IMG/VR virus record: IMGVR_UViG_3300029249_000134 | Coordinates: 1-6,295 of that record | From: a virus | Lineage: Duplodnaviria; Heunggongvirae; Uroviricota; Caudoviricetes | Strand: one strand, 5' to 3' | DNA length: 6,295 bases | Shown: positions 1 to 6,022 of the stretch, one piece after another | Layout: the number at the start of each line of letters is the position of its first letter | Position numbering within the stretch: the stretch's first letter is position 1 | Notes under the pieces: model-generated | Databases searched by the model: none | Seen by the model: only the letters and a program-made list of their open reading frames with translations | Told to the model about the DNA's origin: nothing | Program-made: the position numbers and the translations under genes

Positions 1-1685
1 ACCAGTTGCTGCGCCTCTGTCTGCGAAAAAATCTCCGGATCATCAGGAAAACGGATGGCATACGACGTGGCTTCATCCGCAGGCGTGGGATCGGCTTTCA
101 TACGGGCATAGAGAATTTCTTTTGCGGTGTCCGTTCCCACTTCACACAGATACACGCCCCGCTGATTGCGGGTTTTTGGCATGGTGATCACCGGCTTGCC
201 ATAGACAGATGCGCCTTTTACCGGCAGCACCCGGAAAACACCGTGTTTTTTTGATCTCTGATAAACAATTTCACCATCGATCCCCCCGGTGTCCCAGCAG
301 ACACGGGAAATAGTCATTTCGGTGCCATCCGCATGGCGGTATTTTTTGTTGATCGCCGCATCCACACGTAACAGCGTCTCTTCCTCATCAGGACGCCCCA
401 TAATGATGATTTTATCCACCAGAAAGGCTTCCTCTCCCAGAGCCCATCCCCAGACATACATCTCAAAACGGTTTCGCTGCGAGTCAATGCCCGCCGTCAG
501 ATAAACCACCCGGGCAGGCACCGCCGCCGTGTAACGCACCACCTTATCCATCAGTACCTGGTGATCGAGTTTTTCGCCCACGGCCTCTTCCCAGGTCTCG
601 CCCAGCGTGGTGTTCACAAAGGTTTTCAGGCCGTTGGGATCTTTCAGTGCATCCAGCCAGTCATAGACAATCTGTACCCAGGTGGTGAACGGACTGTACG
701 CCGTCCAGATATGGAACGTGATGGAGCGCGGCGGCGGAATTTCATCACCCCGGGCGCTGAAAAACGTCAGACCGTCACGGGTCCACATGCCCGTGTTTTC
801 ACAGATCCACCGCCCGTTACTCTGGTCAAGCTCAGACTGATGGATCACACAGCCATGATGCTCACAAAGGTAGAAAACACTTTCTGGCTTATTCTTCTCC
901 CACTTAAGACCGAAAGGCGAGGCATCATCGCCAAATTTCAGATACTGCTCCTCCCCACAGTGCGGACAGGGCACATAAAAACGCATGAAGTGTGCCGACT
1001 CGTTAGCGGCTTTTTCGATCTGGCAGGTGCCTTTGATTTTAGGCGTCGAGCCGCGAATGGATTTTGGCCACACCGACCCCTCAATACGCTTATCCCCCAG
1101 CAGGGTTGGCGAGCCCTCTTTTTCGACATCCGGCTCGAACGAGGAAAGTTCGTCATAGCAGACCACGTCCACGGATTTTTCACGGTAGTTTTTGGCGGCA
1201 GCGCCGCCCAGGCACCAGAAACCGACGCCCGATGAAAAGCGTTTCAGCGTGAGAGTATTGTCACGATGTTTACGACCCAGCCATGGGGAAAGGTCTTTCA
1301 GGCATGGCACGTTCCGAATCGTCGCCTCCACGTGAGACTTCATAAAATCTTCAGCGGCAGAATCCGTGGGCTGAAAAAGCAGACTGTTTCGGGATTTATG
1401 CTCAATAAAATACCCGACCACCCCCAGCAACATCTTTGTATAGCCAACACGGGCAGATTTAATCAGGTTAACCGTGCGAACCTGGTCGTTACCCATACAG
1501 TTCATAATGGCGATCTGGAATGGCAGCGTTTTCCATTCTCCCTCACCATATGAAGATTCTTTAGGCAGATAATAATTTTGATCAGCCCATTCAACTGCCG
1601 TCATTGGTACAACCCTGACCAGAGGCTGCAGCGCAACCGAAACGGCAGCCATCATATTATTCAGTTGTTGCTCTGATATATTCAT
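1..1685 (-). CDS. A: Terminase large subunit (lambda gpA-like), partial; C-terminal ~80 residues lie beyond the window start
   Basis: Manual minus-strand translation from ATG at 1685 gives MNISEQQLNNMMAAVSVALQPLVRVVPMTAVEWADQNYYLPKESSYGEGEWKTLPFQIAIMN..., then ...KRFSSGVGFWCLGGAAAKNYREKSVDVVCYDELSSFEPD... and ...YVPCPHCGEEQYLKFGD..., ending at the window edge with ...AIRFPDDPEIFSQTEAQQL. Frame is open across all 1685 nt and matches remembered lambda gpA (MNIS start, AVEWAD, C-terminal FPNNPDIFDLTEAQQL). Start overlaps the Nu1-like gene by 29 nt, as in lambda. Not in the ORF track because it has no in-window stop. Confidence 0.93.
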   Translation of the reverse strand, partial: MNISEQQLNNMMAAVSVALQPLVRVVPMTAVEWADQNYYLPKESSYGEGEWKTLPFQIAIMNCMGNDQVRTVNLIKSARVGYTKMLLGVVGYFIEHKSRNSLLFQPTDSAAEDFMKSHVEATIRNVPCLKDLSPWLGRKHRDNTLTLKRFSSGVGFWCLGGAAAKNYREKSVDVVCYDELSSFEPDVEKEGSPTLLGDKRIEGSVWPKSIRGSTPKIKGTCQIEKAANESAHFMRFYVPCPHCGEEQYLKFGDDASPFGLKWEKNKPESVFYLCEHHGCVIHQSELDQSNGRWICENTGMWTRDGLTFFSARGDEIPPPRSITFHIWTAYSPFTTWVQIVYDWLDALKDPNGLKTFVNTTLGETWEEAVGEKLDHQVLMDKVVRYTAAVPARVVYLTAGIDSQRNRFEMYVWGWALGEEAFLVDKIIIMGRPDEEETLLRVDAAINKKYRHADGTEMTISRVCWDTGGIDGEIVYQRSKKHGVFRVLPVKGASVYGKPVITMPKTRNQRGVYLCEVGTDTAKEILYARMKADPTPADEATSYAIRFPDDPEIFSQTEAQQL

Positions 1686-2166
1686 CGAGTAAATCCGGTA
1701 ATTTATCCCCTGCCCGCGCACACTGATTTGCCCCCTTCGCAATAAGGGTTTTCAGATGGTCAAGATGGCGCGGTGTTAAATCAGGAAACTGTCGCTGCAT
1801 GGATAAAGGGATGGAATCAAGCGTACTGGATAACGCCATTGCCAGCTTACTGAGGGCAAAAATACAGAACCCGGTGTCAATAAGTTTTCCTTTTGACACC
1901 TCATTTTTTAACTGCTGTGTAACAGCCTGTTCTGCTGTCAGTTCCCATCTGGCAATAAGCAATTTCTCCTCATAGTCGTCTTCGCTATCGCCATCAGGCA
2001 CATCGTTTTTACTTCTCCTCAGATACGATATGTAAAAATCGCGCCAGGCATCCAGATCCAGTTGCCCTCGCTTATTCGATATCGGGGCACCCGGCAATTT
2101 CTGCAATCTGCGAAGCTGGCGATCGGTCAGACTTAAATGCCTGGCAACTTCAGTCTGCGTAGCCAC
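1657..2166 (-). CDS. nu1: Terminase small subunit (Nu1-like); N-terminal DNA-binding domain diverged from lambda, C-terminal half lambda-like
   Basis: 169-aa ORF from the track. C-terminal half (…DTGFCIFALSKLAMALSSTLDSIPLSMQRQFPDLTPRHLDHLK…LPDLLDEYI) aligns by eye with lambda Nu1 (…ETAFCTFVLSRIAGEIASILDGLPLSVQRRFPELENRHVDFLK…IPGLLSEYI). N-terminus (TQTEVARHLSLTDRQLRRLQ) is HTH-like but unlike lambda. GTG start at 2166 with a TGA in frame immediately upstream and GAGG 6 nt upstream. Confidence 0.88.
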   Translation of the reverse strand: MATQTEVARHLSLTDRQLRRLQKLPGAPISNKRGQLDLDAWRDFYISYLRRSKNDVPDGDSEDDYEEKLLIARWELTAEQAVTQQLKNEVSKGKLIDTGFCIFALSKLAMALSSTLDSIPLSMQRQFPDLTPRHLDHLKTLIAKGANQCARAGDKLPDLLDEYIRATTE

Positions 2167-2213
2167 TCCTCACCTCGCAAAAACTCTCACCTCACAATCA
2201 CAACAAAACCGGT

Positions 2214-2225
2214 CATGTCCGGTTT
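2214..2225 (-). repeat. cosB R1-like element (putative small-terminase binding site), motif AAACCGGACATG on the phage strand; sits inside a 7-6-7 palindrome 2206-2225
   Basis: Plus strand catgtccggttt; one of three copies of the same ~11-12 bp motif between the Nu1-like start and cosN. Function inferred by analogy to lambda R1. Confidence 0.55.
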
Positions 2226-2243
2226 ACATGTCTGTTTTTTGTT

Positions 2244-2255
2244 CATGTCCGGTTC
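2244..2255 (-). repeat. cosB R2-like element, same orientation as the R1-like copy
   Basis: Plus strand catgtccggttc, 30 bp from the R1-like copy. Confidence 0.55.
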
Positions 2256-2300
2256 ACAGAAGACCTGTTTTTATATTTTTCATATAGTTAACTTGAAGAG

Positions 2301-2312
2301 AAACCGGACATG
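2301..2312 (+). repeat. cosB R3-like element, inverted relative to R1/R2-like copies and closest to cosN
   Basis: Plus strand aaaccggacatg. Separated from the R2-like copy by an A/T-tract spacer (2256-2300, tttttatatttttcatatag) where lambda has the IHF site I1. The inverted R3 / spacer / R2 / R1 layout mirrors lambda cosB. Confidence 0.55.
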
Positions 2313-2349
2313 GATCCCGGAAAATTTTCATAAATAGCGAAAACCCGCG

Positions 2350-2361
2350 AGGTCGCCGCCC
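2350..2361. other. cosN cohesive-end site (12-nt overhang GGGCGGCGACCT on the minus strand), within a 45-bp block (2317-2361) identical to the lambda left end
   Basis: Reverse complement of 2317-2361 is GGGCGGCGACCTCGCGGGTTTTCGCTATTTATGAAAATTTTCCGG, matching the lambda genome start from memory. The adjacent 2362-2370 (reverse complement ccggttacg) resembles the lambda right-end terminus. Lies ~185 bp upstream of the Nu1-like start, as in lambda. Confidence 0.85.
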
Positions 2362-2396
2362 CGTAACCGGTCGGATCGCCGGAAAGGACCCACGAA

Positions 2397-2413
2397 ATGA
2401 TAATGATTATCAT
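2397..2413. promoter_or_regulatory. Perfect 8-1-8 palindrome ATGATAATgATTATCAT (Fur-box-like operator candidate) abutting a TATATA -10-like hexamer (2415-2420)
   Basis: Read directly. 2399-2413 GATAATGATTATCAT matches 14 of the first 15 positions of the Fur consensus GATAATGATAATCATTATC. Lies ~36 bp beyond cosN and ~150 bp upstream of the plus-strand ORF at 2568. Confidence 0.3.
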
Positions 2414-2567
2414 CTATATAAGGTTTATCACAACATGTGTGTACGCCATCAAACCACGAGAAATAATCAATTATGACGCAGGTATCGTATTAATTGATCT
2501 GCGTCAAATTAACGTAAAAGCAACTTCAGATAATACAAATCAGCAACACTGAATATGGGGAAACATT

Positions 2568-2753
2568 ATGTCATCAAAGAACAGAACCCGCAGAACAACA
2601 ACCCGCAACATCCGATTTCCAAACCAGATGATTGAACAAATTAACATCGCTCTTGATCTGAAAGGTTCAGGAAACTTTTCAGCGTGGGTTATTGAAGCCT
2701 GCAGAAGAAGGCTGTCAACAGAGAGTTCGGGTATGAATTACATAATTAAGTAA
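2568..2753 (+). CDS. Small (61 aa) basic protein, ribbon-helix-helix-like putative DNA-binding protein
   Basis: ATG at 2568 preceded by GGGGAAA with 7-nt spacing. Sequence MSSKNRTRRTTTRNIRFPNQMIEQINIALDLKGSGNFSAWVIEACRRRL has a basic N-terminal tail, a short strand (RNIRFP) and two helices, consistent with an Arc/MetJ/CopG-type fold. Opposite strand to the Nu1-like gene. Positionally reminiscent of ylcI/ynfO next to nohD/nohA in E. coli K-12 cryptic prophages, but the sequence match is not verified. Confidence 0.6.
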   Translation: MSSKNRTRRTTTRNIRFPNQMIEQINIALDLKGSGNFSAWVIEACRRRLSTESSGMNYIIK

Positions 2754-3382
2754 CATGGTGTTCACAGAACACGCAGTTACCGGACACATCAGTTTTCCAT
2801 TCGCTCCCCGGCAGTACAGGCTTCCCCTCTGACGGGATAGCCTGAAAAAATAACACAGAAAATTATTTGTTATAATTAATATAACTTACTCAAAAAAAAG
2901 CGACGAGAAAATCAGCATCAACGAACAATAAGCGCCAATACGTGATAACAAATGGCAGCCATATTTATCTGCAGTATAAGCAATGGACAGGATAACCACA
3001 CCAGAAACCGTCAGCATAAAATCCATTTGAACTTCCCCGGACAAAATCGACTCATCTAAAGATTTACAGCTCTTTTTATTATCAATATGTTAAAAGTAAA
3101 ATAAACAGATGTTCAATAACACGAATACAAAAACGTGCTGAAATTCAATGAATCCATTTCTGTGTCATCAATTAATAGTGATAAACATCCGGCTTCTTCC
3201 ACCATCGCACCGGACATGCGACTATGAGGGGACAACGCCGCGCTCCGTTAACGCGGTAAACCCCGGTGTGTATCGTTTTTGATTATCCCCGCACACTCGC
3301 ACAGAGGAGTCTCCCGGTCGGGCTGCGGTCTCTGTTAATGCGGGAATACGGCGACAATACCGCGCATGGATAATAAGGTCGC

Positions 3383-3607
3383 TCAACACACTGGCTGTAA
3401 TGCAGCGGATACCATGCGGCATTTAGCGGTATTCATCGTACACTCAACGGTTAGCTCTTCATTCGTGGCATTCACCTGAAAGGTCCGGGAGTGTAATTGC
3501 ATACATTTACCACTGAACGAACCTTCAACAAGAACACGACCACGCTGCAAAATACGGAACAGAATTGTTCCCTGAAGAGGCTTTACGGTTACCTGTAATT
3601 TCTTCAT
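3383..3607 (-). CDS. Hypothetical 74-aa protein with four Cys, directly downstream of Rz/Rz1, at the position where lambda has bor on the opposite strand
   Basis: ATG at 3607 with GGAGA 4 nt upstream, 23 bp after the Rz stop. Product MKKLQVTVKPLQGTILFRILQRGRVLVEGSFSGKCMQLHSRTFQVNATNEELTVECTMNTAKCRMVSAALQPVC has no signal peptide or TM segment and is not Bor-like. The track's longer version starts at a TTG (3625). Confidence 0.5.
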   Translation of the reverse strand: MKKLQVTVKPLQGTILFRILQRGRVLVEGSFSGKCMQLHSRTFQVNATNEELTVECTMNTAKCRMVSAALQPVC

Positions 3608-3630: not shown

Positions 3631-4104
3631 CTAGTTAATACACTGAGTGCGGATATATTCCTGCGCCCCTCCCACCTGCTTCTGCATTGTCATCAACCGT
3701 TCTCTGAGGATGAAATAATCCCGTTCAGCGGTGTCTGCCAGTCGGGGGCCGGTTGCATTATCCACGCCGGAGGTGGTGGGGGCTTCACGCACGGAGCCTG
3801 GACAGGTGGCGTTGATCCGCAGGCGCTTACGACCAGCGGCAACGTCAGCGCGAAGAGTTTCATTTTCAGCTCTCGCATCGGCTAATTCCCTCGAGTATTT
3901 TGCATCGAGCGCAGCAACATCGCGCTGGCGCACCTGCATATCAGTAATGGTTGCGTTCGCCAGCTTCAGTTCACTGGCTTTGTTATCGCGCTGCGCTTTG
4001 TAGGTAATCGCGTTATCACGGTAATGGTCTGTTGCCATCCACAGCGCACCACAGGCCACCAGCAGAATAACGATAAACGCGGAAAGCATTCGGTTTATGT
4101 TCAC
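3631..4104 (-). CDS. Rz: i-spanin Rz
   Basis: Product contains [69 protein letters not shown]…[23 protein letters not shown], near-identical in blocks to remembered lambda Rz, with an N-terminal TM segment. GTG start at 4104 overlaps the upstream ORF stop (GTGA); alternative ATG at 4089. Confidence 0.9.
3693..3878 (-). CDS. Rz1: o-spanin Rz1, lipoprotein embedded in the +1 frame of Rz
   Basis: Product [61 protein letters not shown] has a lipobox (VVSA-C) and the proline-rich core shared with lambda Rz1 ([27 protein letters not shown]). Lies entirely within Rz in another frame. Confidence 0.88.
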
Positions 4105-4462: not shown

Positions 4463-4502
4463 AAAACCCCGCTTGGTGCCAACAAACGGGGTTTTTACTT
4501 TT
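4463..4502. terminator. Candidate bidirectional intrinsic terminator: perfect 9-bp stem AAAACCCCG / CGGGGTTTT with 15-nt loop and U-rich tails on both strands
   Basis: Stem arms 4463-4471 and 4487-4495 are perfectly complementary (5 GC pairs). Plus strand continues TTTTTACTTTTATT; minus strand continues TTTTGTGTTTCT. Lies 91 bp after the endolysin stop and just upstream of the 60-aa ORF. Confidence 0.45.
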
Positions 4503-4585: not shown

Positions 4586-5119
4586 TTATCTGTCGATACC
4601 CCAGCACGCCAGCGCGCTCTCCTGGTCACGACGGGATACCTGACCGTAACAGTTGTTTGAACGAATACGGCAGTCTCTGCCACCGTCCTTAATCCACCAG
4701 CGAATCGCCTCACAGGCACCTTTTCGATCGCCTGCATTAATTCGTTTATAAAACGTCGACGGGAAGCACTTACCGGGGCCAATGTTGTACGGACAGAATG
4801 ACGCGATCCCCGCTTTCTGGGGTTCGGTCAGCGGCACTTTGATGTTTTTCTCCACCCATGCCAGCGCCTTGTCACGTTCGATGGCATTAACCCGGTCGCA
4901 TTTTTCCTTTGACAGCTTCATGCCAGGAATAACAGGCTTACCATCCACCAGAATGGCACCACGGCAGATGGTCCAGATCCCCGCACCATCACGGTATGCC
5001 ATGGTGTGGTTACCTTCCTTTTCATCCAGAAACTGGTCGAGGATTTCAGGCGCAGAAGCACCTGCACCAATCAGCGCCAGAACGGCAGCCGACAGGCCGT
5101 ATTTTATTTTTTCGTTCAT
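4586..5119 (-). CDS. R: SAR endolysin (T4-lysozyme-type muramidase with N-terminal signal-anchor-release domain), phage 21 R-like
   Basis: 177-aa product has a weakly hydrophobic Gly/Ala-rich N-terminal segment (YGLSAAVLALIGAGASAP) followed by the catalytic triad spacing E-x8-D-x5-T (EGNHTMAYRDGAGIWT), as in T4 lysozyme and R21. No SD upstream of the ATG at 5119; a 6-bp hairpin (5121-5143) abuts the start. Confidence 0.92.
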   Translation of the reverse strand: MNEKIKYGLSAAVLALIGAGASAPEILDQFLDEKEGNHTMAYRDGAGIWTICRGAILVDGKPVIPGMKLSKEKCDRVNAIERDKALAWVEKNIKVPLTEPQKAGIASFCPYNIGPGKCFPSTFYKRINAGDRKGACEAIRWWIKDGGRDCRIRSNNCYGQVSRRDQESALACWGIDR

Positions 5120-5236: not shown

Positions 5237-5551
5237 ATGAACAGTAAAGAAAGTTTGCGCAGAAGATTTTTACAACTAATGACAGAAAACGTTAAATCAG
5301 AGTTACTTCTTCTGATGGCAGATAATAACGAAGCAACAAGCAGCATTCTTGCAGACCCTTACGGTAAGATCTCACATAAAACGCTGGATATTATTACCAC
5401 AACATTAACACCGCTGATGCTTCAACGGCTGAAACATAATATCAACGCATGGGTTAATGAAGAATTAAGTCCTCCCTGCTTATGGGATTCTCGTTACGCA
5501 TGTCAGCAAAAAATGCGAATTTTCAACTTACTATCACCAAAGCTCAGGTAG
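5237..5551 (+). CDS. Hypothetical 104-aa protein encoded opposite to the lysis genes inside an AT-rich insert between holin and endolysin (candidate moron)
   Basis: Track ORF MNSKESLRRRFLQLMTENVKSELLLLMADNNEATSSILADPYGKISHKTLDIITTTLTPLMLQRLKHNINAWVNEELSPPCLWDSRYACQQKMRIFNLLSPKLR. Protein-like composition but weak RBS. Consensus TATAAT at 5159-5164 upstream; 8-bp hairpin 5557-5586 right after the stop. Position and size resemble ydfR between essQ and rrrQ in K-12 Qin, but that is from memory and unverified. Confidence 0.45.
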   Translation: MNSKESLRRRFLQLMTENVKSELLLLMADNNEATSSILADPYGKISHKTLDIITTTLTPLMLQRLKHNINAWVNEELSPPCLWDSRYACQQKMRIFNLLSPKLR

Positions 5552-5806: not shown

Positions 5807-6022
5807 CTACTCTCCCCGCGCCACCTTACGACGGTCCTCTCTGATTTTGAAATACAGGTTAGTCAGATACGTCAGCAGGCCAAACAGCAGACTCCCCAGC
5901 ACACCTATCGCCACCCACTGGGACGGAGAGACTTTGTCCAGCAGCTGCAGTAACCAGTATCCCGTCCCCACCGCTGACGTGGTGTATGACACACCCGTTG
6001 TGATTTTTTCCATCTGGTACAT
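5807..6022 (-). CDS. S: Class II holin / pinholin, phage 21 S-like, with dual-start motif (Met1 and Met4)
   Basis: 71-aa product [71 protein letters not shown] has two TM segments and a basic C-terminus, closely resembling remembered S21. GGGAGA lies 6 nt upstream of the ATG at 6022; second ATG at 6013. Pinholins characteristically pair with SAR endolysins. Confidence 0.9.

What the first reader, a model, noticed from the sequence alone, without database searches (positions are those of the whole stretch)
2474..2753. Small ribbon-helix-helix-like gene next to cos, preceded by an 8-bp inverted repeat operator candidate
The 61-aa plus-strand ORF has a good RBS and RHH-like features. About 60-90 bp upstream lies a perfect inverted repeat TGACGCAG-17 nt-CTGCGTCA (2474-2506), a plausible autoregulatory operator. 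The gene is divergent from the packaging genes. It could be a moron regulator, an orphan antitoxin-like repressor, or a packaging/cos accessory factor. Small DUF-type proteins sit next to Nu1 homologs in K-12 cryptic prophages and remain functionally undefined.
Basis: partly seen in the sequence, partly recalled or inferred. Interest (0 to 1): 0.5.

Follow-up and report, generated by a model that had tools for sequence, protein, structure and literature searches.

The report
YlcI/YnfO ribbon-helix-helix gene beside cos
The small gene next to the phage DNA-packaging site is a known but uncharacterised prophage protein (YlcI/YnfO, also present unannotated in phage lambda) that looks like a small DNA-binding regulator, and the repeat in front of it lies in a strongly conserved block that is probably its own control site.

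Summary
ORF 2568-2753 (+) and the perfect repeat TGACGCAG-17-CTGCGTCA (2474-2506) are both there, 113-156 bp from cosN (2350-2361).

The ORF is not new. It is a YlcI/YnfO (DUF3950, PF13132) protein, identical to RefSeq WP_001329960.1. Relatives occur in 4174 of 5426 complete E. coli genomes. Phage lambda has a copy at 48109-48303 (complement) that NC_001416 does not annotate. No function has been published.

A ribbon-helix-helix fold is supported by the AlphaFold2 model, by fold matches that are all ribbon-helix-helix proteins (scores weak), and by a weak profile match to P22 Arc. The protein is under strong purifying selection (dN/dS 0.05 against lambda).

The repeat is part of two interleaved 8-bp dyads, in the most conserved non-coding block of the locus. 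However, the 8/8 symmetry is polymorphic: lambda has 7/8. Stx-phage copies lack the block entirely.

Distant homologues sit in phage satellites (PICI and capsid-forming PICI). Their promoters carry three 12-bp operator-like units that co-vary with N-terminal residues 12 and 14.

Best reading: an autoregulated small repressor, not a cos factor or an antitoxin. The window gene itself is ordinary. The satellite lead is the interesting part.

The parts
2568..2753 (+). 61-aa ORF plus stop codon: a YlcI/YnfO (DUF3950) protein. Predicted ribbon-helix-helix layout: basic N-terminal arm (residues 1-13), beta-strand around N14-I15-R16-F17, helix A 19-32, helix B 37-54, variable tail from about residue 50.
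2557..2562 (+). Shine-Dalgarno-like GGGGAA, 5 nt before the ATG.
   Evidence: Read directly from the sequence. Partly variable among relatives.
2529..2534 (+). Best -10-like hexamer, GATAAT (GACAAT in lambda, Qin and DLP12). There is no convincing -35. This is inferred, not shown.
   Evidence: Manual reading. The consensus scan found no + strand promoter here. It sits at -39..-34 from the ATG, comparable to the TATAGT/TATGGT boxes at about -34 in satellite homologues.
2474..2506 (.). Inverted repeat B/B': TGACGCAG (2474-2481), 17 nt, CTGCGTCA (2499-2506).
   Evidence: Exact match. The right arm is CTGCATCA in most relatives.
2466..2498 (.). Second inverted repeat A/A', interleaved with the first: ATCAATTA (2466-2473), 17 nt, TAATTGAT (2491-2498). 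Together the order is A-B-9 nt-A'-B'.
   Evidence: Invariant in 32 of 33 distinct lambda-type loci.
2446..2528 (.). Conserved non-coding block (-122 to -40 from the ATG) holding both dyads and CGTCAA (2502-2507).
   Evidence: Column variability is 3/41 in 2466-2506 and 4/22 in 2507-2528, against 20/50 at third codon positions. GTCAA starts at -65, against a mode of -64 in satellite homologues.
2350..2361 (-). cosN cohesive-end sequence GGGCGGCGACCT. Context only; it is not part of the gene module.

Best explanation
The ORF encodes a small dimeric ribbon-helix-helix DNA-binding protein of the YlcI/YnfO (DUF3950) family. It is transcribed from its own weak promoter, opposite to the phage late operon, in the gap between the lysis genes and cos. 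That is the same slot lambda uses for bor, a gene outside the late programme.

The basic N-terminal arm and the beta-strand (T12, N14, R16) are expected to read DNA bases. The most likely target is the conserved block 2446-2528 just upstream of its own gene, which contains the two interleaved dyads. Binding there would shut off its own promoter (autorepression).

Shown: family membership, purifying selection, constraint on the upstream block, and operator/N-terminus co-variation in satellite homologues.
Inferred: the fold-based DNA binding of this particular protein, the promoter position, and that the dyads are its site.

It is not needed for cos recognition. In this window it has no toxin partner.
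For: - Family: PF13132, NF041551 and phrog_949.
- Fold: the AlphaFold2 model has an extended N-terminus plus helices 19-32 and 37-54, mean pLDDT 71.
- Profile match to Arc: hhalign E = 4.9e-4, in the register N14/R16/F17/P18 = Arc N11/R13/W14/P15.
- Satellite members hit the PHROG 'Arc-like repressor' families at about 2e-4.
- Selection: dS 0.89 and dN 0.045 against lambda.
- Upstream block: far more conserved than synonymous sites.
- The block is unique in the lambda genome, so the gene's own promoter is the only candidate target there.
- In 27 satellite loci, two 12-bp GTG-N6-CAC units lie 22-29 bp apart (23 bp in most), with a third near the -10 box.
- Differences between those units track residues 12 and 14 (r = 0.69; 0 of 5000 permutations reached it). 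They do not track residues 15-30 or 15-end (r = 0.07 and -0.05), the neighbouring Ash-like protein (r = 0.02), or AlpA more than weakly (r = 0.21, n = 10).
- The GTCAA anchor lies at the same distance from the ATG in the window and in the satellites.
- ylcI is transcribed in K-12: a ybcW-ylcI excludon is seen in at least 50% of RNA-seq samples (PMC12288877).
Against: - There is no binding data, and no transcription start site is known.
- The consensus scan finds no + strand promoter.
- The B/B' repeat is 7/8 in most relatives, with no compensatory change.
- The dyad arms are 25 bp apart centre to centre. That differs from the 23-bp direct palindromic units of the satellites, and the window has no GTG-N6-CAC unit.
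- Stx-phage homologues with identical T12/R13/N14 have only 41 unrelated bp upstream and no copy of either half-site nearby.
- Co-variation in satellites could partly reflect close physical linkage of the operators and codons 1-14.
Confidence: 0.5

Rival explanations
1. The conserved dyad block is a cis element for something other than this protein. Candidates are a host factor site (the repeated AATCAATTA resembles the ATCAA core of IHF sites), or a hairpin in the late transcript that reads through this region on the minus strand. The gene would then simply lie next to it.
For: - The block is constrained, but its symmetry does not co-vary.
- In the window the region folds better than shuffles on both strands (z = -2.7 and -3.6).
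- The G-to-A change seen in lambda would keep a G-U pair on the minus-strand RNA.
- Stx-phage copies of the gene do without the block.
Against: - In lambda the same region folds no better than shuffles (z = -0.7 and -0.3).
- Rfam finds nothing here.
- Neither AATCAATTA copy completes the IHF consensus WATCAANNNNTTR (sequence reading; consensus from memory).
- The block lies outside cosQ-cosN-cosB.
- It sits where satellite homologues have protein-matched operators.
Confidence: 0.17
2. Gatekeeper. The protein bound at its site, together with convergent transcription from its promoter, blocks leaky read-through from the lysis genes across cos into the terminase genes of the prophage. In satellites the equivalent would be blocking read-through from the alpA module into the replication and packaging operon.
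For: In both contexts the gene is the lone antisense gene inside a long operon, placed just before the packaging or replication genes. Satellite operators flank a TTGACG -35-like box that faces the downstream operon.
Against: This is purely positional inference. Lambda already has tR' to stop late transcription in lysogens (established knowledge). No leftward promoter is evident in the lambda-type block. About 23% of complete E. coli genomes gave no match to this gene region, although whether those genomes carry lambdoid prophages was not checked.
Confidence: 0.1
3. Orphan antitoxin. The protein is the ribbon-helix-helix antitoxin of a two-gene module whose partner (DUF1398: YdfO, YbcV, lambdap78) has been lost in this window.
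For: In lambda, Qin, DLP12-like prophages and phage Chlobot a DUF1398 gene follows on the same strand. Fused DUF3950-DUF1398 products exist in the database (P0296). The C-terminal tail changes together with the downstream module.
Against: - DUF1398 is not a known toxin, and no paper found reports toxicity.
- In lambda and DLP12 an opposite-strand gene separates the pair.
- In the satellite loci examined no DUF1398 gene was recorded near the DUF3950 gene.
- The window protein has only a 12-residue tail and no co-oriented neighbour.
- The P0296-type fusions could be read-through or sequencing artefacts.
Confidence: 0.08
4. Packaging or cos accessory factor that helps terminase recognise or terminate at cos.
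For: The gene is adjacent to cos in lambda-type phages. A few satellite variants fuse DUF3950 to a terminase-small-subunit-like helix-turn-helix domain (PF03592; P0193, P0222, P0223, P0226).
Against: - The gene keeps its place in Stx phages with an unrelated HNH/TerS packaging module.
- In satellites it lies between alpA and the primase gene, kilobases from the packaging genes.
- It is transcribed against the late operon.
- It lies outside the cosQ-cosN-cosB region that is sufficient for lambda packaging (established knowledge).
- It survives in K-12 cryptic prophages that no longer package.
Confidence: 0.04

Closest known systems
YlcI (DLP12) and YnfO (Qin) of E. coli K-12; Pfam DUF3950 / NCBIfam NF041551
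   Same: Same family. The first 50 residues are 88-92% identical. Same position between the lysis genes and the Nu1-type gene (nohD, nohA), same divergent orientation, same conserved upstream block.
   Different: The C-terminal tail (STESSGMNYIIK) and everything downstream differ. K-12 and lambda copies are followed by a DUF1398 gene, and this window is not. In this window the B/B' repeat is 8/8 rather than 7/8.
Arc and Mnt repressors of phage P22 (Arc family, PF03869)
   Different: There is no significant sequence-family membership: hhalign probability is 32% and no member hits PF03869. The candidate dyads here are 25 bp apart and interleaved, unlike the compact 21-bp Arc operator. The genomic slot is different (immI in P22, the lysis-cos gap here).
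Ribbon-helix-helix antitoxins and plasmid regulators (CopG, VapB, MazE9, HicB C-terminal domain)
   Different: No adjacent toxin and no toxin-binding C-terminal extension in this window.
Stl/Rpr master repressors of Gram-positive PICI satellites
   Same: This compares the satellite homologues, not the window gene. They are divergently placed regulators next to the replication/packaging operon, with operator repeats in the intergenic region. PMC6092414 states that a global repressor in Gram-negative PICIs is unclear.
   Different: Unrelated in sequence and far smaller. Any repressor role is untested. Gram-negative PICIs are known to be switched on by AlpA (PMC6092414).

Membership tests
YlcI/YnfO family (Pfam PF13132 DUF3950; NCBIfam NF041551) | Scores above the curated cut-offs of the family models | tested here: met
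   PF13132: 67.5 bits against 25. NF041551: 35.2 bits against 30. phrog_949: E = 9e-32.
YlcI/YnfO family (Pfam PF13132 DUF3950; NCBIfam NF041551) | Conserved core IRF ... NFS(A)WV..AC in a protein of roughly 50-80 aa | tested here: met
   I15, R16, F17, F37, W40, V41 and C45 are invariant, and N36, S38 and A44 nearly invariant, in a 65-sequence alignment. The window protein has all of them and is 61 aa long.
YlcI/YnfO family (Pfam PF13132 DUF3950; NCBIfam NF041551) | Annotated as such in reference genomes at the same locus | tested here: met
   A 100% DNA match in E. coli 266917_2 is annotated 'YlcI/YnfO family protein', WP_001329960.1.
Ribbon-helix-helix (Arc/MetJ-type) DNA-binding proteins | Beta-strand, helix, helix topology of about 45 residues | tested here: inconclusive
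Ribbon-helix-helix (Arc/MetJ-type) DNA-binding proteins | Detectable sequence-profile relationship to a bona fide family member | tested here: inconclusive
   hhalign against an Arc alignment: E = 4.9e-4, probability 32%, over the strand plus helix A only. Satellite members hit PHROG 'Arc-like repressor' families at about 2e-4. Pfam RHH_1 hits only 1 of 65 members, at E = 0.24. No relative is found in PDB by sequence.
Ribbon-helix-helix (Arc/MetJ-type) DNA-binding proteins | Dimerisation through an antiparallel two-stranded sheet | not testable with these tools
   Only monomer prediction was available.
Ribbon-helix-helix (Arc/MetJ-type) DNA-binding proteins | Sequence-specific DNA binding by alternate beta-strand residues and the N-terminal arm | tested here: inconclusive
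   The evidence is indirect. In 27 satellite loci the operator-unit sequence co-varies with residues 12 and 14 (which align to Arc Q9 and N11) and with residues 6 and 11. It does not co-vary with the rest of the protein or with neighbouring genes. This could not be tested for the window protein, because its N-terminus and its upstream block are both nearly invariant.
Type II toxin-antitoxin antitoxin | Co-transcribed adjacent toxin gene | tested here: not met
   Within 600 bp after the stop codon, the ORFs with any annotation or family support are on the opposite strand. The few short co-oriented ORFs (30-44 aa) start 200 bp or more downstream and have no support. Relatives have DUF1398 downstream, but it is not a known toxin.
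Type II toxin-antitoxin antitoxin | C-terminal toxin-neutralising extension | tested here: not met
   Only about 12 low-confidence residues follow helix B.
cos / terminase accessory element | Lies within, and co-varies with, the packaging module | tested here: not met
   The same gene sits next to an unrelated HNH/TerS module in phage YYZ-2008. In satellites it is far from the packaging genes. It lies 207 bp outside cosN.
Phage 'moron' (independently transcribed insert in a late operon) | Opposite orientation to the late operon, with its own promoter and terminator | tested here: inconclusive
   The orientation criterion is met. Only a -10-like box is found, with no scan-level promoter or + strand terminator.

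The most novel reading that the evidence does not exclude
DUF3950 proteins are operator-specific ribbon-helix-helix repressors. In Gram-negative PICI and capsid-forming PICI satellites they would be the so-far-unidentified resident repressor. They would sit on three co-evolving 12-bp operators at the junction between the alpA module and the replication/packaging operon. Lambdoid helper phages, including lambda, would carry a paralogue of the same switch protein next to cos. That paralogue could gate read-through into the terminase genes or interact with satellite copies.
Probability: 0.25. Interest if true: 0.65.

Novelty: new member of a known kind. Interest (0 to 1): 0.35.

Why it matters
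For this window the result is mostly clarifying. The gene is a catalogued family of unknown function, present in about three quarters of E. coli genomes (up to 12 copies each) and in phage lambda, where the reference annotation omits it.

Assigning it a ribbon-helix-helix DNA-binding role, with a defined candidate operator, turns a y-gene (ylcI, ynfO) into a directly testable regulator.

The wider value lies in the satellite homologues. Their operator-like repeats change in step with residues 12 and 14 of the protein. That gives a concrete candidate for the repressor that published work says is still unclear in Gram-negative PICIs. It also gives a natural recognition-code data set for this fold.

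Tried and rejected
- Rfam scan of the window (E up to 1): only three sub-threshold chance hits, and nothing on the repeat.
- Sigma-70 and terminator scan of 2160-3400: no + strand promoter, and no + strand terminator after the ORF.
- RNA folding of the repeat region: better than shuffles in the window but not in lambda, so a conserved RNA structure was rejected.
- An H-type pseudoknot from the A-B-A'-B' order: rejected on steric grounds, because two 8-bp stems would have zero-length crossing loops (inference).
- PDB sequence search with a family profile: no relatives.
- hhalign of the family against single Arc and Mnt sequences: too weak to use. It improved only with an Arc alignment.
- Search for the half-sites near the Stx-phage (YYZ-2008) copy: none found.
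- Search for extra copies of the block in the lambda genome: none within 2 mismatches.
- The apparent module boundary at 2465 in locus L100 turned out to be an IS3-family insertion, so it is not evidence for a functional boundary.
- The lambda ribosome-profiling paper (Liu et al. 2013) is not in the held library.
- The afdb50 fold library was not available.
- Literature searches for ynfO, ylcI, DUF3950 and DUF1398 found no functional study.
- GTG-N6-CAC units of the satellite type were looked for in the window's upstream region: none found (sequence reading).

Full report
**Setting.** The window is a lambdoid E. coli prophage segment, read in the reverse of the lambda map.
- Terminase large subunit: about 1-1680, minus strand.
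- Nu1-type small subunit: 1657-2166, minus strand.
- Spanin Rz with embedded Rz1: 3631-4104 and 3693-3878, minus strand.
- Lysozyme: 4586-5119, minus strand.
- P21-type holin: 5807-6022, minus strand.

The lambda cohesive-end sequence GGGCGGCGACCT is at 2350-2361. Between it and Nu1 lie three to four copies of CATGTCCGGTT, most likely the terminase-binding repeats of cosB. The finding therefore sits on the right-end side of cos, in the gap between the lysis genes and cos.

**Checking the observation.** The ORF (2568-2753, +, 61 aa) and the repeat TGACGCAG-17-CTGCGTCA (2474-2506) are exactly as described.
- A single perfect 8-bp inverted repeat is not rare. In shuffles of the 401-bp intergenic region, 16-17% contain at least one and 5% contain at least two.
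- There is a second perfect repeat, ATCAATTA-17-TAATTGAT (2466-2498). It interleaves with the first, so the block reads A-B-9 nt-A'-B'.
- I compared 33 distinct lambda-type loci: lambda, Qin, DLP12-like prophages and many IMG/VR prophages. Block 2466-2506 varies at 3 of 41 columns. Positions 2507-2528 vary at 4 of 22, positions 2529-2567 at 10 of 39, and third codon positions of the gene at 20 of 50.

The block is therefore under stronger constraint than synonymous sites. The right arm is CTGCATCA (7/8) in lambda, Qin, DLP12-like prophages and most other loci, even in some that encode the identical protein, and the left arm never compensates.

**What the gene is.** It is a YlcI/YnfO family protein.
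- Pfam DUF3950: 67.5 bits against a cut-off of 25. NCBIfam NF041551: 35.2 against 30. phrog_949, function unknown.
- A 100% DNA match in E. coli 266917_2 is annotated WP_001329960.1, 'YlcI/YnfO family protein'.
- The 401-bp region matches in 4174 of 5426 complete E. coli genomes, with up to 12 places per genome.
- In K-12 the copies are ynfO (next to nohA in Qin) and ylcI (next to nohD in DLP12).
- Phage lambda has an intact 64-aa copy at 48109-48303 (complement), 199 bp from the right end. NC_001416 does not annotate it, although some newer lambda-like records do.

Against lambda, the first 50 codons show 18 synonymous and 5 non-synonymous differences (dS 0.89, dN 0.045, dN/dS 0.05). The protein is clearly selected.

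Similarity to K-12 and lambda ends near codon 50, and the C-terminal tail and everything downstream are different modules. In lambda, Qin, DLP12-like prophages and phage Chlobot a DUF1398 gene (lambdap78, ydfO, ybcV) follows on the same strand. In this window it does not.

The literature held here gives no function for YlcI, YnfO, DUF3950 or DUF1398. One RNA-seq survey lists a ybcW-ylcI convergent excludon, which shows that ylcI is transcribed in K-12 (PMC12288877).

**Fold.** An AlphaFold2 model built on a 65-sequence alignment has mean pLDDT 71. It shows an extended N-terminus followed by helices 19-32 and 37-54.
- Foldseek returns four non-significant hits: NikR, the MukBEF-MatP-DNA complex, a TCP domain and a transcription factor-DNA complex. 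From my own knowledge these are of the same fold.
- A profile comparison with an Arc alignment gives E = 4.9e-4 (probability 32%) over the strand and helix A. The register is N14-I15-R16-F17-P18 against Arc N11-L12-R13-W14-P15.
- In Arc, Q9, N11 and R13 contact the bases (established knowledge). The equivalents here are T12, N14 and R16.
- Satellite members of the family also hit PHROG 'Arc-like repressor' families at about 2e-4.
- There are no relatives in PDB by sequence.

I take the ribbon-helix-helix fold as likely (about 0.8) but not proven.

**Evidence from distant relatives.** The family is small: 106 clusters at 50% identity among 1.84 billion proteins. Many of those are frameshifted copies of lambda control DNA. 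The true diversity lies in other Enterobacterales, plus one Pasteurellaceae and one Gilliamella locus.

There the gene sits in phage satellites. The layout is integrase, AlpA, one or two genes, then the DUF3950 gene on the opposite strand, then small ORFs, a primase/D5 helicase and, in many cases, capsid, protease and portal genes. This is the layout of PICI and capsid-forming PICI elements (bioRxiv 10.1101/2022.09.08.507074).

In 27 such loci the roughly 180-bp region before the gene has a fixed architecture:
- Two 12-bp units of the form GTG-N6-CAC, 22-29 bp apart (23 bp in most loci).
- The second unit abuts a conserved ACGTCAA, which reads TTGACG on the other strand.
- An A/T-rich spacer of about 24 nt follows, then a TATAGT/TATGGT box.
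- A third copy of the unit lies just after that box.

The six central bases of the unit differ between loci but agree within each locus. Their differences track residues 12 and 14 of the protein (r = 0.69; 0 of 5000 permutations reached it), and also residues 6 and 11. They do not track:
- residues 15-30 (r = 0.07) or residues 15 to the end (r = -0.05);
- the adjacent Ash-like gene product (r = 0.02, 23 loci);
- AlpA, more than weakly (r = 0.21, 10 loci).

This is the pattern expected if the N-terminal arm and strand of DUF3950 read those units. The caveat is that the operators and codons 1-14 are physically close, so linkage could contribute. However, codons 15-30 are just as close and show no correlation.

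**Back to the window.** GTCAA starts at -65 from the ATG, against a mode of -64 in the satellites. A -10-like GATAAT lies at -39..-34, against about -34 in the satellites. The two dyads occupy the place of satellite units O1 and O2.

In the lambda-type branch both the N-terminus (MS[ST]KNRTRRTTTRNIRF) and the block are nearly invariant. That is consistent with a matched pair, but it makes co-variation untestable. The block is unique in the lambda genome, so the gene's own promoter is the only evident target.

Against this reading:
- There are no GTG-N6-CAC units here, and the arm spacing is 25 bp.
- The promoter is weak by consensus.
- Stx-type phages with an HNH/TerS packaging module carry the gene with only 41 unrelated bp upstream and no half-sites nearby.

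**Verdict on mechanism.** The most likely reading (0.5 overall) is a small ribbon-helix-helix regulator. It would be transcribed against the late operon from its own promoter and would repress that promoter by binding the conserved dyad block.

Rivals:
- The block serves another factor or an RNA role (0.17).
- A read-through gate in front of the terminase genes (0.10).
- An orphan antitoxin of a DUF1398 module (0.08).
- A cos accessory factor (0.04). This is contradicted by the gene's persistence next to unrelated packaging modules and by its location in satellites.

**Novelty.** The gene is a catalogued family member, and the exact protein is already in RefSeq. As a kind of system it is a small phage ribbon-helix-helix regulator, so I file it as a new member of a known kind with modest interest.

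The more novel lead is outside the window. PMC6092414 states that a global repressor in Gram-negative PICIs is unclear. The satellite DUF3950 genes, with three co-evolving operators at the junction of the alpA and replication modules, are a concrete candidate.

Noticed in passing
L003 2710-2904 (-) = lambda NC_001416 48109-48303 (complement): Phage lambda carries an intact 64-aa YlcI/YnfO homologue 199 bp from its right end. The reference record NC_001416 does not annotate it. Its neighbour lambdap78, labelled 'head protein', is a DUF1398 (YdfO/YbcV) protein.
   Followed up: yes
L011-L043, L058, L065 and many about 3.5-kb ENA contigs: Copies of this lambda region that are 90% identical at protein level appear in assemblies labelled Streptomyces, Pseudomonas, Cohnella, Flavobacterium, Staphylococcus, a spider and others. 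Many are 3.5-kb or 48.5-kb contigs. These look like lambda control-DNA contamination (the 3.5-kb size fits a sequencing spike-in), and they create many frameshifted 'family members' in protein databases.
   Followed up: partly
L048-L095, about -120 to -25 before the DUF3950 start: Satellite (PICI and capsid-forming PICI) homologues have three 12-bp GTG-N6-CAC units around their promoter. The central bases of the units co-vary with protein residues 12 and 14, which makes the protein a candidate resident repressor of Gram-negative PICIs.
   Followed up: partly
L008 4714-5103; proteins P0193, P0222, P0223, P0226: Some satellites encode a 127-129-aa fusion of DUF3950 with a terminase-small-subunit-like helix-turn-helix domain (PF03592; phrog_641 at E = 1.6e-17).
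   Followed up: partly
window 2207-2312: CATGTCCGGTT occurs three times exactly (2214, 2244 and, inverted, 2302), plus a 1-mismatch copy at 2207. Chance would give 0.14 copies. These are probably the terminase (Nu1) binding repeats of cosB. The Nu1 here matches the Pfam model only over residues 49-150, so its N-terminal DNA-binding part differs from lambda's.
   Followed up: partly
window 3160-3180: CTGTGTCATCAATTAATAGTG repeats 11 bases (ATCAATTAATA) of the A' arm region, next to a 1-mismatch copy of the B' arm. It could be a distant second site or chance: about 9 such 11-mer pairs are expected somewhere in the window.
   Followed up: no
window 2886-3044 (-): A small hydrophobic ORF (46-52 aa, MLTVSGVVILSIAYTADKYGCHLL...) is annotated only as hypothetical (WP_000347013.1). 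It has no Pfam or PHROG match. It could be a membrane peptide.
   Followed up: no
window 5237-5551 (+): A second gene antisense to the late operon (104 aa, phrog_1853, function unknown) lies between the holin and the lysozyme. It is annotated as hypothetical in RefSeq.
   Followed up: no
window 4463-4495: A GC-rich hairpin, AAAACCCCG-15 nt-CGGGGTTTT, flanked by A and T runs, lies between the lysozyme gene and the small ORFs upstream of Rz. It looks like a two-way terminator inside the lysis cassette. A sub-threshold Rfam rimP-leader hit overlaps it.
   Followed up: no
L100 2514-2900: In one IMG/VR prophage an IS3-family transposase fragment is inserted exactly at the left edge of the dyad block (equivalent to window 2465). 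The block and a 100% identical gene remain intact.
   Followed up: partly
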